A stretch of 20,000 nucleotides of DNA, from the NCBI RefSeq assembly GCF_004010195.1, contig NC_057719.1, positions 10,953,164 through 10,973,163 on the forward strand, given 5' to 3'. The DNA is from Chiloscyllium plagiosum (lineage: Eukaryota). A model generated the notes under the pieces. That model made no database searches. It was given only the letters and a program-made list of their open reading frames with translations, and was not told the DNA's origin. The position numbers were made by a program, and so were the translations under genes. This document shows, piece by piece, positions 1,863 through 18,859 of the stretch. Positions within the stretch are counted from its first letter, which is position 1. Every line of letters starts with the position of its first letter.

Positions 1863-2008
1863 ATTTGGAGATGCTGGTGTTGGGCTGGGGTGTACAAAGT
1901 TAAAAATCACACAACACCAGGTTATAGTCCAACAGGTTTAATTGGAAGCACACTAGCTTTCGGAGCACAACTCCTTCATCAGGTGATTGTCCTGTGTGAT
2001 TTTTAACG
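1863..2008 (-). mobile_element. Short Penelope-like (PLE)-derived insertion with 12-bp TSD
   Basis: Flanked by gtgtgaagtttg at 1851-1862 and 2009-2020; internal 15-bp inverted repeat (1899-1913 / 1993-2007); contains a hammerhead core. Confidence 0.8.
1951..1985 (-). ncRNA. Minimal type I hammerhead ribozyme motif
   Basis: Minus strand CAC-CUGAUGA-A-GGAG(UUGUG)CUCC-GAAA-G-CUA-GUG: helix I CAC/GUG, helix II GGAG/CUCC, palindromic AGCU helix III, CUA cleavage triplet. Confidence 0.7.
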
Positions 2009-2359: not shown

Positions 2360-2422
2360 TGTGCTGCCAGATCTGCTGTGTTTCTCCAGCATTTCTTCAT
2401 TTTTATTTCAAATTTCCAGCAT
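2360..2422 (+). mobile_element. PLE-derived tail fragment
   Basis: tgctgccagatctgctgtgtttctccagcatt matches the other PLE-like copies in the window (4490, 17675). Confidence 0.55.
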
Positions 2423-2832
2423 TGGCACTAATTTGCCTTTATTCCCTGCCCAATATTGTGTTGTTTGGAGAGCTGACCACTGCTAAAGGGATCAAAGATT
2501 CTGTGAAGACTGCCTTTCTGAGTATTACAATGATCACTACCATAGGGAAATAAGGCCATAGCTTGTAACACATGGAGATACTTTTGAGTCTGAGTGAAGA
2601 ACTAGCATGAAGGAGAATAGGAAGAGATTGAGAGGTTCAATTTTCCTAAGCAGTGACTATACCTACAGCTGCACCCGCTGTTGAAAAATCTGCCAATTAC
2701 AAATAGGCCTGACTAACTAGCAGCAGGCCTTAAACCAATGAGTACAACCTCCCCAAAATCTCTGTCAGCAAAGAAATGCACAACATCAGGAAGGACCAGG
2801 GAGTGCATGGTGTCAGGTTTGTTATTTATATA

Positions 2833-4111
2833 ATCATAGAGTCATAGAGATGTACAGCACGGAAACAGACCACTCAGTCCAATTCGTCCATACCAACCAG
2901 ATATCCTAAATTAATTTAGTCTCATTTGCCAGCACCTGGCCCATATCCCTCTAAACCCCTTCCTATTCATATACCTATCCATATGCCTTTTAAATTCTGT
3001 AATTGTACCAGCTTCCACCACTTCTTCTGGCAGCTCATTTTATACAATCACCACCCTCTGCGTGAAAATGTTGCCCCTTATGTTCCTTTTAAATCTTCCC
3101 CCTCACACCTTAAGCCTGTGCTCTCTAGTTCTGGACTCCCCCACCCCTGCTACTCACCCTTTCCATGCTCCTCATGATTTTATAAATCTCTATAAGGTTA
3201 CCCGGCAGCCTCTGATGATCCAGGGAAAACAGCCCCAGCCTGTTCAGCCTCTCTCTGTAGCTCCAACCCTCCAACCCTGACAACATCCTTGTAAATCTTT
3301 TTTGAACCCTTTCAAGTTTCACAACATTCTTCCGACAGCAGGGAGACCAGAATTGGACACAGTATTCCAAAAATGGCCGAACTAAGGTCTTGTACAGCCA
3401 CAACATGACTTCCCAACTCCTATACTCAATGTACTGACCAATAAAGGCAAGCATACCAAACGCCTTCTTCACTATCCTTTCAAGGAACTATGAACCAGCA
3501 CTCCAAGGTCTTTTTGTTCAGCAACACTCCCCAGGATCTTACCATTAACTGTATAAATCCTGTCCTAATTTACCTTCCCAAAATGTAGCACATCACTTTT
3601 ATCTAAATTAAACTCCATCTTCCACTCCTCAGCCCAGTGGCCCATCTGATCATGATCCCATTGTACTCTGAGGTAAGCTCCTTCGCTGTCCACTACACCT
3701 CCAATTTTGGAGTCATCTGCAAACTTACTAACCATATCTCCTAAGTTCAAATCCAAATCAATTATATAAATGACGAAAAGCAGTGTATCCAGCACCAATC
3801 CTTGTGGCACTCCACAGGTCACAGACCTCCAGTCTGAAAAGCAACTCTCCAACATCCCCCTCTGTCTTCTACCTTTGAGCCAGTTCTGTATCCAAATGGC
3901 TAGTTCTCCCTATATTCATGAGACCTAACCTTGCTAACCAGTCTCCCATGGGGAGACTTGTCGAACGACTTACAAAGTCCATATAAGTATAGATCATGTC
4001 CACCGCTCTGCCCTCATCAATCCTCTTTGTCACCTCTTCAAAAAATTCAATCAAATTAGTGAGACATGATTTCCCATGGATAAAGCCGTGTTGACTATCC
4101 CGAATCAGTCC
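2833..4111 (-). mobile_element. 5'-truncated CR1/HER1-like LINE with decayed ORF2 reverse transcriptase and C-terminus
   Basis: ORFs 3869-4054 (FFEEVTKRIDEGRAVD.IY.DF), 3565-3855 (GVPQG, KFADDSKIGG RT motif) and 3125-3472 (LYKTLVRP.LEYCVQFWSP...ERVQKRFTRM); tail repeat (tctatgac) at 2833-2850. Confidence 0.95.
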
Positions 4112-4153
4112 TACTCAGTGGGATGTCAAGCAGCCAAGGTCATGCTTCAAAGT

Positions 4154-4547
4154 AAAGGCAAAATACTGAGGATGCTGGAAATCTGAAATAAACATAGAAT
4201 GCTGGAGGAACTCAACAGATCTGGAAGCATCAGTGCAGAGAGAAACAGTGTTAACATTTCAAGTCCAGTATCACTCTTCAGAACTGAGTGCGAGTTAAAA
4301 GGCTGGGCTACTATGTAAATTCAAGATGTGTATGCAGTTTAGTACGCATATTCTTTTAAATAAATGGGAACTTGTTCTATAAATTGTTCCACTTCTTGTT
4401 TTTGGGTTACATTTCCTGCCTTAACATTGGCAGAGGGGCCAAAATAAATCCTTTGGAAGACATGTCACACTGGATTTCTCTCTCCTCAGATACAGCCAGA
4501 TCTGCTGGGTTTCTCCAGCATTCTCTACGTTTGTTTCACACTTCAGA
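4154..4547. mobile_element. Inverted pair of PLE-derived fragments (4154-4286 on -, 4472-4547 on +)
   Basis: gctggaggaactcaacagatctgg versus ccagatctgctgggtttctccagc; decayed hammerhead core on minus at ~4250-4284 (GUU-CUGAAGA...GAAAUGUUAAC). Confidence 0.65.
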
Positions 4548-5840: not shown

Positions 5841-5855
5841 ACAAATGATTCACTC

Positions 5856-6080
5856 AAATAAAAGCAAAATACAATGGATACTGGAAATCTGAACCAAACA
5901 CAGAGAATACTGGAGAAACTCAGCAGGTCTGGCAGCATCGGTGAAGAAACAAAATTAACATTTCGCTTCTGATACATCTCTTCACCAGAACACTAAGTTC
6001 CGCAGAAAAATCATACCAGACTCGATGCGTTAACTCTGTTTCTATTTTCACAAATGCAACGTTTCTCCAGCATTCTTTGT
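5856..6080. mobile_element. Head-to-head inverted PLE-derived hairpin element
   Basis: Left arm actggagaaactcagcaggtctggcagcatc; right arm gttaactctgtttct...tttctccagcattc; two decayed hammerhead cores at ~5955-5991 (-) and ~5996-6035 (+). Confidence 0.7.
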
Positions 6081-6888: not shown

Positions 6889-7383
6889 CTCGGAGCAAGT
6901 CAAAGGTCAGAAATTCTGTGCCAAGTAATTCACCTCTTGCATCTGCAAAGCCCATTTACCATCCACGTTGGGGGTAGGATGGAATACTTTCTCTTGTCCG
7001 GATGGATGCAACTCCAAGAAGAAACTCAATGCCATCCAGGGCAAAGCAGCCCACTTGATTGGCACGACATTCAACATTCACTTCCTTGTGGGCGGCACGG
7101 TGGCACAGTGGTTAGCACTGCTGCCTCACAGCGCCAGAGACCCGGGTTCAATTCCCGCCTCAGGCGACTGACTGTGTGGAGTTTGCTCGGAGCAAGTCAA
7201 AGGTCAGAAATCTGTGCCAAGTAATTCACCTCTTGCATCTGCAAAGCCCATTTACCATCCACGTTGGCGGTAGGATGGAATACTTTCTCTTGTCCGGATG
7301 GATGCAACTCCAAGAAGAAGCTCAATGCCATCTAGGGCAAAGCAGCCCACTTGATTGGCACGACATTCAACATTCACTTCCTT
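6889..7383 (+). repeat. Direct duplication: 199 bp (6889-7087) and 198 bp (7186-7383)
   Basis: Copies are identical except for 3 substitutions and one 1-bp indel; separated by a SINE head. Confidence 0.95.
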
Positions 7384-9503: not shown

Positions 9504-9949
9504 CCAAACGATGGTTAAAGTTAGAAAAGTTCAGCCTAACAGAAGAAAAGAACTTGCCTTTATATAGCACCCTTCACAACACTGGGATGCCCAAACCTTT
9601 TTCTCGTCAAATCAATTATGGTCACTGTTCTGATGTAGCCACTGTTGTGATATAGGAAATTCAGAAAGCCAATGTGTGCACAGTAAGCTCCCACAAATGG
9701 CAATGGAGATAAACAGCCGCCTACTTTAGGTGCTTCCTGAAGGATAATATATTTTGCCAGAAAACTGAGAGAAATCTTATGCTCTTCTCTGAAAAGTGCA
9801 AAGGAAAACTGGAAGGGATATCAGACTCCTGTGACGTTGGACTCTCATAACACAGGAAGGACTTTTCTGAATACATCATGTGGCTCCTCTAACTCTCCCA
9901 CCATGAAAATACACTGTGCTTAACATAATTTTATGATATACAACACATA
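9504..9949 (+). repeat. Copy 1 of an inverted segmental duplication (partner 12072-12480)
   Basis: Reverse complement aligns end to end at roughly 95% identity apart from two deletions. Confidence 0.95.
9548..9800 (-). mobile_element. Deu-domain SINE 3' half
   Basis: Reverse complement of aacttgcctttatatagcacc (tail) and gccaatgtgtgcacagtaagctcccacaaatggcaatg (Deu core). Confidence 0.75.
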
Positions 9950-12071: not shown

Positions 12072-12480
12072 TATGTGTTGTATATCATAAAATTATGTTA
12101 AGCACAGTGTATTTTCATGGAGAGAGAGTTAGAGGAGCCACATGATGTATTCAGAAAAATCCTTCCTGTGTTATGAGAGTCCATCGTCACAGGAGTCTGA
12201 TATCCCTTCCAGTTTTTCTTTGCACTTTTCAGAGAAGAGCATAAGATTTCTCTCAGTTTTCTGGCAAAAAATATCATCCTTCAGGAAGCACCTAAAGTAG
12301 ACGGCTGTTTATCTCCATTGCCATTTGTTGGAGCTTACTGTGCACACATTGGCTACATCAGAACATAATTGATTTGACAAGAAAAAAGCTTGGGCATCCC
12401 AATGTTGTGAAGGGTGCTATATAAAGGCAAGTTATTTTCTTCTGTTAGGCTGAACTTTTCTAACTTTAACCATCGTTTGG
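12072..12480 (-). repeat. Copy 2 of the inverted segmental duplication
   Basis: 409 bp, equal to 446 bp minus deletions of 30 and 7 bp. Confidence 0.95.
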
Positions 12481-17162: not shown

Positions 17163-17403
17163 AATTTGCCTATGCAAAGTGGAATCATGTGAATATTTCA
17201 GTCAAGATGAGAGTGGTGCTGGAAAAGCACAGCAGGTCAGGCAGCATCCGAGGAGCAGGAAAATCCATGTTTCTGATGAAGGGCTCCTGCCCGAAACGTC
17301 GACTTTCCTGCTCTTCTGATGTTGCCTGACCTGCTGTGCTTTTCCAGCACCACTCTCATCTTGACTGAAATATTCACATGATTCCACTTTGCATAGGCAG
17401 ATT
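17163..17403. repeat. Long hairpin (111-bp arms, 19-nt loop) built on a PLE-derived inverted element
   Basis: 17167-17243 is the exact reverse complement of 17323-17399; inner arms imperfect; core CUGAUGA-A-GGGC(UCCU)GCCC-GAAACGUC at 17273-17300. Confidence 0.95.
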
Positions 17404-17620
17404 GGAAAAGTTACAGCTTTAAATGGTTGATCATAGCCCGTACCATACAACCTGTCACACTTGGGCACTATTTGAAGTGGACAACTTGACAGAGGTGGAA
17501 GATGTAGGAGGTGTGGTCTAGTCCAACATTTTTGGTGCAACGTACAGTCCAGCATTATTTGCAGCAACTTTTACATCAATGCACAGCAACAGGGCAACAA
17601 CAATACAACTTGCCATCATT

Positions 17621-17753
17621 CAGGAATCCTGAAGAAGGGCTTATGCCCGAAACGTCGATTCTCCTGCTCCTCAGATGCTGCCTGGCCTGCTGTGTTTTTC
17701 CGGCATCATATTTTTCAACTCTGGTCTCCAACATCTGCAGTCCTCACTTTCTC
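17621..17753 (+). mobile_element. 133-bp PLE-derived insertion with 15-bp TSD
   Basis: caacttgccatcatt (17606-17620) / caacttgccattatt (17754-17768). Confidence 0.85.
17623..17662 (+). ncRNA. Minimal type I hammerhead ribozyme motif
   Basis: GGAAUC-CUGAAGA-A-GGGC(UUAU)GCCC-GAAA-C-GUC-GAUUCU: helix I, core, helix II, palindromic ACGU helix III, GUC triplet (predicted cut after 17656). Confidence 0.78.
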
Positions 17754-18859
17754 CAACTTGCCATTATTGTAAGGATTAACAACAACCCATCATACATGCA
17801 ATGCAATGTTGGTGCTTTCTTTCACTGGACACTTTATCTAAAGAGGACCTGGGTTGCACTGGTCATGTAGGGTTACAGAATTATGTAGATAAAGGCCATT
17901 CAGGCCACTGTATGTTCATTAACATTTTGAAAATGATATCCCTTGCGTCTCACCCCTTGTTCATAAACCCCTGGACGTTTCCCTCACCATCTATTTATCC
18001 ATCTGGAAGTGATTACTGAACCAGCTTGCTTTGTCTCTTAGACAATGCATAATAATTAACTTTAATCATCATGATACCTCTTTATTGTTCTTTGGCATTA
18101 ATAGTTACTCTGTTGCTTTAACTTCAGCATAGCCATCATTCTGTAATAATTTCATGTCTGCTTTGCTCTCTCTGCAAATAAAGAGTTACTTCATGAATAT
18201 TCATTTACTTTTTAGTGATAAATTCCGTACAGACAGGACAGTCACCATCATGCTCTTTGCTGTCTTTTCAAAGAGTCAACAATCCAATGAGCAGGTATAA
18301 CTCTCATCCATTGTGGAGTGCTGGCTGATGTGAAGTGACTGTATGAAAATCCTGATTTATTGAAAGTGATCCTTCTGGCCCCTAAAGGAGATTGTGTTCC
18401 CTTGCCTTGAAAACATAATGTTCCTTGGGCAGCACTTAAAATCCACTTATCAATCAGTGAAAAACATCAGGAGAGGCAGGCATCCCCATTTTTTAATAAC
18501 CTCAAATCCATAGCAAATGCAAAAGGTTTACTATTAATGATAACAAGGTGTTTGAGCTGATGATCTCAGGAGATTGATTACAGTAGGAAGAATACAAGTT
18601 GCTATGTGATCCAAAATTCTCATAGAAATCAAATTGCGCTTCACCTGGAGTGTTTACATAACAGAGAGAATCACAAACTCTAATGAAAGGCTGAAAACAC
18701 AAGCTTGAGAAACCAGGGTGACAGAATAACCTGCCGCTTGATCCTGGAGGGAACAGTGGTCGCTACCCTGCACTTTCAAACTGTTGAGCTTTCTCCTCTC
18801 ATCACAAGTACTGCTCATCCCCAATGGAAAGATGGAGCTGCAGGATAGTGCCAAAGGCC

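What the first reader, a model, noticed from the sequence alone, without database searches (positions are those of the whole stretch)
17606..17768. 133-bp TSD-flanked retro-insertion that begins with an intact minimal hammerhead ribozyme
Seen: a 15-bp TSD brackets a 133-bp insert whose first ~42 nt fold as a complete type I hammerhead (helix I GAAUC/GAUUC, CUGAAGA core, 4-bp helix II, GAAA, GUC triplet). Helix III is only the palindrome ACGU, and there is an extra A after A9. Established: Penelope-like elements and retrozymes carry minimal hammerheads that need dimerisation through a palindromic helix III, and an extra A at this position occurs in the CChMVd hammerhead. Inference: this is a tiny non-autonomous, ribozyme-bearing retroelement mobilised in trans by a PLE, a shark mini-retrozyme-like unit that repeat annotation would not flag as catalytic RNA.
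Basis: partly seen in the sequence, partly recalled or inferred. Interest (0 to 1): 0.72.

Follow-up and report, generated by a model that had tools for sequence, protein, structure and literature searches.

The report
Penelope retrotransposon stub carrying hammerhead motif
This 133-base insertion is real, but it is one of hundreds of thousands of short end-pieces of an ordinary protein-coding Penelope-type jumping gene, likely a dead-end DNA copy of the first 130 letters of that element's RNA rather than a self-spreading mini-ribozyme element.

Summary
The TSD (14/15) and the minimal hammerhead core are present as described. The unit is not independent. Its 127 element-derived bases are both the 3' end and the 5' leader of an autonomous RT + GIY-YIG Penelope-like element (PLE). 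The genome has 46,872 exact 32-nt cores and about 127 insertions per Mb. The family's own helix I has 2-4 bp. With the flanking TT, the junction folds into a hairpin that hides the core. Family 5' ends pile up at an initiator-like site 4 nt before the core, often after an extra G (55 of 100 against 9 of 100), not at the cut site. That fits run-off cDNA from the capped, uncut RNA front. Three of three U6-joined copies of sister subfamilies join exactly at the cut site, so the motif probably cuts at times in vivo. No transcription of this copy was seen in one lightly sampled RNA run. PLE minimal hammerheads, tails, inversions and TSDs are published. This scan noted the run-off, cap and U6 readings before on other DNA; I re-tested them here.

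The parts
17606..17620 (+). left copy of the 15-bp target-site duplication; its last TT also fits the inverted arm
   Evidence: family TSDs 10-20 bp, mode 14, found in 39 of 181 insertions against 0 of 542 mismatched-flank controls
17619..17627 (-). 7-9-nt inverted piece of the element's 5' end (reverse complement of family positions -4..+2 or +4; position 0 = C3 of the core); supplies the 5' strand of this copy's helix I and a rival hairpin 17619-17633
   Evidence: 884 exact copies of this 28-nt junction; in 30 sampled, 20 continue as inverted arms of 89 nt or more, 1 as 19 nt, 9 as 7-9 nt
17628..17656 (+). minimal type-I hammerhead of the PLE pseudo-LTR: core, extra A, 4-bp helix II, GAAA, ACGU palindrome, predicted cut after C17656
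   Evidence: 46,872 exact genome matches of the 32-nt pattern, 0 for the reversed control
17657..17718 (+). rest of the pseudo-LTR up to the tail-less 3' end zone (+28 to about +90)
   Evidence: 107 of 241 arms end at +75..+98
17719..17754 (+). about 35-bp PLE 'tail', ending at +125/+126; in long copies the element body follows directly
   Evidence: 101 of 241 arms end at +125/+126; 44 of 47 inverted pairs have the tail on one arm only; 149 exact tail-to-body junctions
17754..17768 (+). right copy of the TSD (one C/T difference)
   Evidence: both junctions are also on contigs of runs X13 and X14
17163..17403 (.). separate, more diverged head-to-head insertion of the same family, with a second core at 17273-17300; not part of the 133-bp unit
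   Evidence: 111-nt arms, 94% complementary; 85% identical to the insert over 80 nt

Best explanation
The insert is a TSD-flanked 127-bp piece (hammerhead, pseudo-LTR end and tail) of a very abundant RT + GIY-YIG Penelope-like element plus a 7-9-nt inverted junction, likely made as a run-off cDNA of the capped, uncut front of the element's own RNA and likely unable to move again. Steps. (1, shown) These bases are both the 3' end and the 5' leader of long copies. (2, from PMC11167929, inferred here) The PLE protein nicks both target strands about 15 bp apart and starts reverse transcription internally at the tail end (+126) or about 35 nt before it. (3, inferred) Started at the first leader/ORF junction, synthesis runs off the RNA's 5' end at the initiator-like A(-4) after about 130 nt, often adding a base opposite the cap. 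(4, inferred) The top-strand end ...TT paired with AA at +3/+4, copied 7-8 nt to the RNA end and joined the first cDNA, giving the mini-inversion; cDNA fold-back is not excluded. (5, inferred) The ribozyme motif is a passenger here. In the family it probably cuts occasionally, as a dimer or with protein help.
For: Long copies encode RT (Pfam RVT_1 E=7e-6), a CxxC linker and GIY-YIG (E=3.4e-4) upstream of the same 127 nt. Five of 20 loci found with 5' ORF DNA have the whole unit directly before the body and four more have part of it; L122, L123, L127 and L134 start at about 0, -8, -1 and +10, and L138 is a partial tandem. Census of 148 10-kb stretches (1.42 Mb): 100 of 228 arm 5' ends lie at -9..+9, 34 at -5..-3 against 8 at -8..-6, and only 24 in -99..-10. 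Of 16 copies that run past the tail into body sequence, and so came from a leader/ORF junction, 10 start at -8..+5. The base before A(-4), where it is not the family's C, is G in 55 of 100 listed rows against 9 of 100 at an inner control position (counted by eye; Fisher p=1.5e-12). There are 5,010 such junctions at -4 against 286 at +12 under a slightly stricter pattern. The insert is 121/127 identical to the end of long copy L038. PMC11167929 found that template sequence 3' of the RT start is needed and that ribozyme cleavage is not; the stub lacks that sequence.
Against: No RNA start was observed: raw reads of run X17 (about 2% read) showed no place where many molecules begin or end, and run X18 laid nothing. 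The initiator and cap readings rest on DNA junctions and a recalled consensus. Both Pfam scores are below the curated cut-offs, and a third ORF piece had no hit. Only 39 of 181 insertions and 9 of 29 solo tail-bearing stubs had a detectable TSD. BLAST ends are uncertain by 2-3 nt. 36 of 228 arms extend beyond -100, so ordinary truncation from the 3' pseudo-LTR also occurs. Some G rows at -5 are explained by inverted arms or point changes. The anole element is a Poseidon-clade PLE, so its rules may not carry over.
Confidence: 0.68

Rival explanations
1. Plain 5'-truncated copy made from the 3' pseudo-LTR of the same autonomous PLE. RT stalls at or just past the hammerhead structure, or the ends are trimmed there, with no RNA end at -4.
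For: 5' truncation and adjacent inversions are the textbook PLE pattern (PMC8557442, PMC8969392, passages). 52 of 228 arms extend upstream of -20. Helix II is stable (P about 1).
Against: The edge is sharp and lies upstream of the structure (34 ends at -5..-3, 8 at -8..-6). Long copies start at the same place. The G excess at -5 is not expected from a pause.
Confidence: 0.2
2. One reading: an independent 133-bp non-autonomous mini-retrozyme with its own source copy, self-cleaved and mobilised in trans by a PLE.
For: 29 of 181 insertions are solo, tail-bearing units starting at -9..+9. Animal retrozymes derive from PLE pseudo-LTRs and leave monomers (bioRxiv 10.64898/2026.07.22.740005). Pseudo-LTRs sufficed for trans mobilisation in a rotifer (PMC3846280 passage). 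884 copies share the 28-nt junction.
Against: No tandem array. 5' ends do not pile up at the cut site: 7 at +26..+30 against 5.7 expected, p=0.34. The shared junction sits on different subfamilies and arm lengths, so it recurs rather than being inherited. The nearest relatives are a mix of solo, inverted and long copies, without shared private changes. I sampled 30 of 884 junction copies.
Confidence: 0.07
3. The stub is what remains of a longer head-to-head insertion whose left arm was deleted after insertion.
For: 47 of 181 insertions are inverted pairs. Seven of nine short-arm junction copies keep more inverted sequence upstream after a gap.
Against: The left TSD abuts the junction intact, which needs a deletion ending exactly at the TSD. 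Similar TSD-abutting mini-inversions occur elsewhere (L096, L151, L087).
Confidence: 0.05

Closest known systems
Minimal hammerheads (min-HHR) in pseudo-LTRs of metazoan PLEs (Cervera and De la Pena 2014, PMC4209133; parts 1-2 of 4 read)
   Same: No helix III beyond a palindrome, an unpaired base between positions 9 and 10.1, G-C closing pair of helix II, mostly single motifs from truncated PLEs, and opposite-strand pairs close together; thousands per genome in fish, coelacanth and frog.
   Different: Helix II here is 4 bp and the family helix I 2-4 bp, shorter than in the schistosome examples. The copy number is far higher (46,872 exact cores). Cartilaginous fish are not mentioned in the parts I read; supplements were not opened.
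EN+ PLE insertion unit: 5' truncation, inverted pLTR, 30-40-bp tail, TSD, palindrome at the junction (PMC8557442, PMC3846280, PMC8969392; passages)
   Same: Every structural feature: one-sided tail (44 of 47 pairs), head-to-head inversion, junction palindrome, 10-20-bp TSD, partial tandem.
   Different: The passages do not describe 5' ends piling up at a transcription start or an extra G. PMC3846280 explains junction palindromes by self-priming on an antisense template.
PAc, Poseidon element of Anolis (Frangieh et al. 2024, PMC11167929; parts 1-2 of 4 read)
   Same: Two RT start sites bounding the tail, priming on both strands, hammerhead at the pLTR/ORF junction, uncut RNA as the main template.
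   Different: Its ORF starts inside the hammerhead; here the main ORF ATG lies about 40 nt after the tail. The parent here has a CxxC linker (Neptune/Nematis type).
Non-LTR retrozymes (PMC7229834 passages; bioRxiv 10.64898/2026.07.22.740005, parts 1-3 of 5)
   Same: Short, non-coding, type-I hammerhead, PLE-derived, long TSDs.
   Different: Retrozymes are tandem repeats with canonical or paired ribozymes that give circular RNAs. This is a single unit identical to a PLE end.
U6/LINE-1 chimeras made by RtcB ligation (Moldovan et al. 2019, PMC6789731; abstract, introduction start and section list seen)
   Same: U6 3' end joined to a 5'-OH retroelement RNA and then retrotransposed; a model for the three U6 junctions at +28.
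   Different: There the 5'-OH source is an unknown nuclease with variable junctions; here all three are at the hammerhead cut site.

Membership tests
Endonuclease-bearing Penelope-like element (fragment of) | Parent ORF with RT and C-terminal GIY-YIG | tested here: met
   L061/L062 ORF pieces; RVT_1 E=7e-6 and GIY-YIG E=3.4e-4, both under Pfam cut-offs
Endonuclease-bearing Penelope-like element (fragment of) | Pseudo-LTR: same sequence at the 3' end and before the ORF | tested here: met
Endonuclease-bearing Penelope-like element (fragment of) | 30-40-bp one-sided tail, inverted 5' copy, TSD | tested here: met
Neptune clade | Zn-finger-like CxxC linker between RT and EN | tested here: met
   motif seen in L061-L068 translations; shared with Nematis per PMC8557442
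Neptune clade | RT phylogeny | not tested
   no reference PLE proteins were on hand; no tree built
Minimal PLE hammerhead | Core boxes, extra base after A9, G10.1-C11.1, palindromic 15.2-16.2 | tested here: met
   the descriptor required the palindrome, so that trait was imposed in the scan
Minimal PLE hammerhead | Structure kept across sequence families | tested here: met
   helix II GGGC/GCCC with at least six loop variants; a subfamily with AUUC/GAAU; another family with CAC/GUG, GGAGC/GCUCC and AGCU. No formal covariation statistic was run.
Minimal PLE hammerhead | Self-cleavage as dimer or with protein | not testable with these tools
   indirect only: 3 of 3 U6 joins at +28 in sister subfamilies
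Non-LTR retrozyme | Tandem repeats with two or more hammerheads | tested here: not met
   no array; the neighbouring core is locked in a 111-bp hairpin, inter-copy ACGU pairing P=0.0
Non-LTR retrozyme | Unit ends defined by the cleavage site | tested here: not met
   unit starts 28-35 nt upstream of the cut; no pile-up at +26..+30
Non-LTR retrozyme | Abundant monomeric or circular RNA | tested here: inconclusive
   a poly(A) single-cell run cannot show it; no reads on this copy's unique flanks
Independent non-autonomous (SINE-like) family | Own source lineage with shared ends and private changes | tested here: not met
   30 of 884 junction copies and 21 close relatives examined

The most novel reading that the evidence does not exclude
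These stubs are a genome-scale fossil record of PLE reverse transcription. Most are strong-stop-like cDNAs of a capped RNA that starts 4 nt before the hammerhead, joined to a second cDNA primed from the other target strand. Rare U6 fusions at the exact cut site show that the weak minimal hammerhead does cleave in the germ line. The joining step can also rebuild a 6-bp helix I, as here and at up to about 900 junctions, so some stubs could be better ribozymes than their parent.
Probability: 0.5. Interest if true: 0.6.

Novelty: new member of a known kind. Interest (0 to 1): 0.3.

Why it matters
The single insertion matters little: it is one copy of a dominant repeat. The family statistics bear on two open points in PLE biology: how pseudo-LTR, tail and inversion structures arise, and whether metazoan minimal hammerheads cut in vivo. 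PMC4209133 reports low in vitro activity and no in vivo evidence. PMC11167929 found no RNA-seq ends at the cut site. A predicted start at A(-4), a 130-nt run-off product and U6 ligation at +28 are direct, cheap tests. In practice, such stubs should be annotated as PLE ends and not as new retrozymes.

Tried and rejected
Rfam scan of the window: five microRNA-model matches on the neighbouring hairpin, all below gathering scores, and no hammerhead. Tandem array: none at the site. Host exon: the ORF list shows only LINE pieces and short frames, and a 120-aa stop-free frame across the insert is taken as chance. Cis-dimer with the core 356 bp upstream: rejected by folding. 5' ends at the cut site: not enriched. 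Hidden subfamily upstream sequence mimicking the -5 edge: five references were used, and 4 pairwise matches were found among 48 solo flanks. Sequencing runs: no RNA holder listed. X17 gave 0 depth on the unique flanks and no sharp starts; X18 laid nothing. No empty-site joint appeared among those shown for X13, X14 and X2, with 819 joints not shown. Look-up of earlier findings by sequence returned nothing. Literature: 'hammerhead ribozyme + Penelope + shark' gave one review; 'Penelope + shark genome + repeat + Neptune' gave none; the strong-stop/cap search, the U6/RtcB search and the elasmobranch search listed no paper describing these readings. These were search listings only, in an open-access library; Repbase and Dfam could not be searched, and no supplements were read.

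Full report
Observation. The 15-bp repeat at 17606-17620 and 17754-17768 (one mismatch) brackets 133 bp. Rfam does not flag it. My descriptor does, with 69 rows (63 distinct sites) in 1.42 Mb of other genomic DNA against at most 1 in each of five shuffles. Below, position 0 is C3 of the core (17629).

A very common repeat. The genome is 3.56 Gb. A 32-nt pattern over the core has 46,872 exact matches and its reversed control none. I took 148 10-kb stretches at round coordinates (1,421,641 non-N bases). They held 241 arms of this and sister subfamilies. After dropping 13 arms at edges or N runs, 228 arms made 181 insertions, about 127 per Mb, or roughly 4.5e5 in the genome by extrapolation. Contigs of a run from a second organism also carry the family.

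The parent. Many close relatives continue upstream in shared sequence of staggered length into the end of a GIY-YIG frame. Of 30 loci found with that DNA, 27 have the insert sequence downstream; the three misses contain N runs. L061 and L062 share 3 kb with RT, a CxxC linker and GIY-YIG. Pfam gave RVT_1 E=7e-6 and GIY-YIG E=3.4e-4, both under the curated cut-offs, and a third piece had no hit. At the other end, 5 of 20 loci found with 5' ORF DNA have the whole unit directly before the body and 4 have part of it. There are 149 exact tail-to-body junctions. So the insert is the pseudo-LTR end plus tail of an autonomous PLE of Neptune/Nematis type. 3' ends are bimodal: 101 of 241 at +125/+126 and 107 at +75..+98. 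In 44 of 47 inverted pairs only one arm has the tail. TSDs of 10-20 bp were found in 39 of 181 insertions and 0 of 542 controls. This is the published PLE layout (PMC8557442, PMC3846280, PMC8969392, passages) and matches the two RT start sites of PMC11167929.

Helix I is a junction product. The family reads CCTCATTC before the core, so its helix I is 2 bp, a U-U mismatch and one more pair; one subfamily has 4 bp. The window copy has CAGGAAT instead, the reverse complement of -4..+2. This 28-nt junction occurs 884 times. In the first 30 listed, 20 continue as inverted arms of 89 nt or more, one as 19 nt and nine as 7-9 nt. Seven of the nine carry further inverted sequence after a gap; two abut flank, without a detected TSD. 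The accident gives a 6-bp helix I, the MFE of 17621-17665 (z -1.9; 7 of 200 shuffles as good). A double-hammerhead dimer scores -24.9 kcal/mol against -9.5 for the native leader of L038; neither is the dimer MFE (-28.6 and -24.1).

Where copies begin. Of 228 arms, 100 start at -9..+9, with 34 at -5..-3 and 8 at -8..-6. Only 24 start in -99..-10, and 36 reach -100 or beyond. Long copies start in the same zone. Of 16 fetched copies (of 149) that run past the tail into the body, 10 start at -8..+5, 2 far upstream and 4 inside. TCA(-4)TTCC fits the initiator consensus (recalled), and Drosophila Penelope has an internal promoter with an initiator (PMC2377424 passages). Following a lead from earlier notes, I listed copies with a non-family base at -5. 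There are 5,010, with G in 55 of the first 100 (T 23, A 22); at a control position (+11) there are 286, with G in 9 of 100 (counted by eye; p=1.5e-12). Some rows are point changes or inverted-arm bases. An extra G is what copying a cap would leave, and the window junction can be read with its complement (GGAAT+C), ambiguous by one base. Ends at the cut site are not enriched: 7 at +26..+30 against 5.7 expected. The templates were therefore mostly uncut, as in PMC11167929.

Does the motif cut? On a second lead from earlier notes, I searched for the U6 3' end within 30 nt upstream of +36. There were three matches, all joined exactly at +28. One is near full-length U6 (90.4 bits); two are 3' fragments below the gathering score (22.5 and 21.9 bits), sitting inside inverted pairs, one with a 13-bp TSD. 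They belong to sister subfamilies, not the window's exact one. RtcB joins U6 to 5'-OH RNAs (PMC6789731, abstract), and 5'-OH is what a hammerhead leaves (established). This is indirect, n=3, and says nothing about this copy.

Expression. No RNA holder was listed. In about 2% of a poly(A) single-cell run of the same species label, family reads were plentiful on both strands, but depth on the unique flanks was 0. On the tandem copy L138, depth summed over both directions was about 600-1,300 over the stub region, 40 or less in the body and about 20-115 upstream, with no sharp starts or ends. The second run laid nothing. This mirrors passive read-through of many stubs and neither supports nor refutes the start site. 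Both junctions are on contigs of two other data sets of the same organism label.

Mechanism and rivals. Best: a run-off copy of the capped RNA front made in cis by the element's own enzymes, with a short second cDNA primed from the other target strand, and a dead end because the template sequence 3' of the tail is missing (0.68). Plain truncation from the 3' repeat (0.2) does not explain the sharp edge or the G. An independent mini-retrozyme (0.07) fails the tandem, cut-site and private-lineage tests: all three subfamily groups have long and short forms, and 21 close relatives of all forms share no private set of changes with the insert. Later deletion of a long left arm gets 0.05. That it is a PLE end at all is shown, at about 0.95.

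Novelty. PLE minimal hammerheads with the extra A and palindrome are published (PMC4209133), as is the PLE origin of animal retrozymes (bioRxiv 10.64898/2026.07.22.740005). I found no paper on the start-site pile-up, the extra G or U6 joins. Subscription papers, repeat libraries and supplements were not seen. Earlier notes of this scan report the same readings on other DNA; I had reached the RNA-5'-end reading before opening them, and took the cap and U6 tests from them. The finding is a new member of a known kind, interest 0.3.

Noticed in passing
window 17163-17403: Head-to-head insertion of the same family whose 111-nt arms include about 37 bp (17367-17403 and 17163-17199) of sequence with no match in 148 random stretches. 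It looks like host flank duplicated in inverted orientation instead of a direct TSD, which would favour a fold-back or DNA-templated second arm.
   Followed up: partly
window 1955-1985, minus strand (core at 1982): Minimal hammerhead of a different family (helix I CAC/GUG, 5-bp helix II, AGCU palindrome), with about a dozen relatives in the random stretches.
   Followed up: partly
window 2362-2443, 4147-4281, 4467-4544, 5854-5965: Short pieces of a further, more distant repeat that shares the middle of the pseudo-LTR, some in inverted pairs; a degenerate core at 4281 on the minus strand.
   Followed up: no
L287, L288, L289 (G000:C3:3076511, C10:45249801, C11:5559499): U6 snRNA 3' ends joined exactly at the hammerhead cut site of sister subfamilies.
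   Followed up: yes
window 17643-17753 and L122, L123: An ATG in helix II opens a hydrophobic, cysteine-rich upstream frame of at least 37 codons in the young subfamily. It is closed by stops before the main ORF in L122 but runs into it in L123; older subfamilies lack the ATG.
   Followed up: no
window 9504-9949 and 12072-12480: A 446-bp inverted pair, 89% identical, 2.1 kb apart; also a 199-bp near-identical direct repeat at 6889-7087 and 7186-7383.
   Followed up: no
window 3125-3909, minus strand: Fragments of a CR1-like LINE reverse transcriptase frame (label from recall).
   Followed up: no
L113, L152, L171, L103, L223, L249, L161: A third hammerhead family with a long helix II and ACGU followed by U or C at position 17.
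   Followed up: no
L138:2285-2324: Five RNA reads (two start places) go back 40 nt at a point next to the cut site; probably a genomic tandem duplication, too few to interpret.
   Followed up: no
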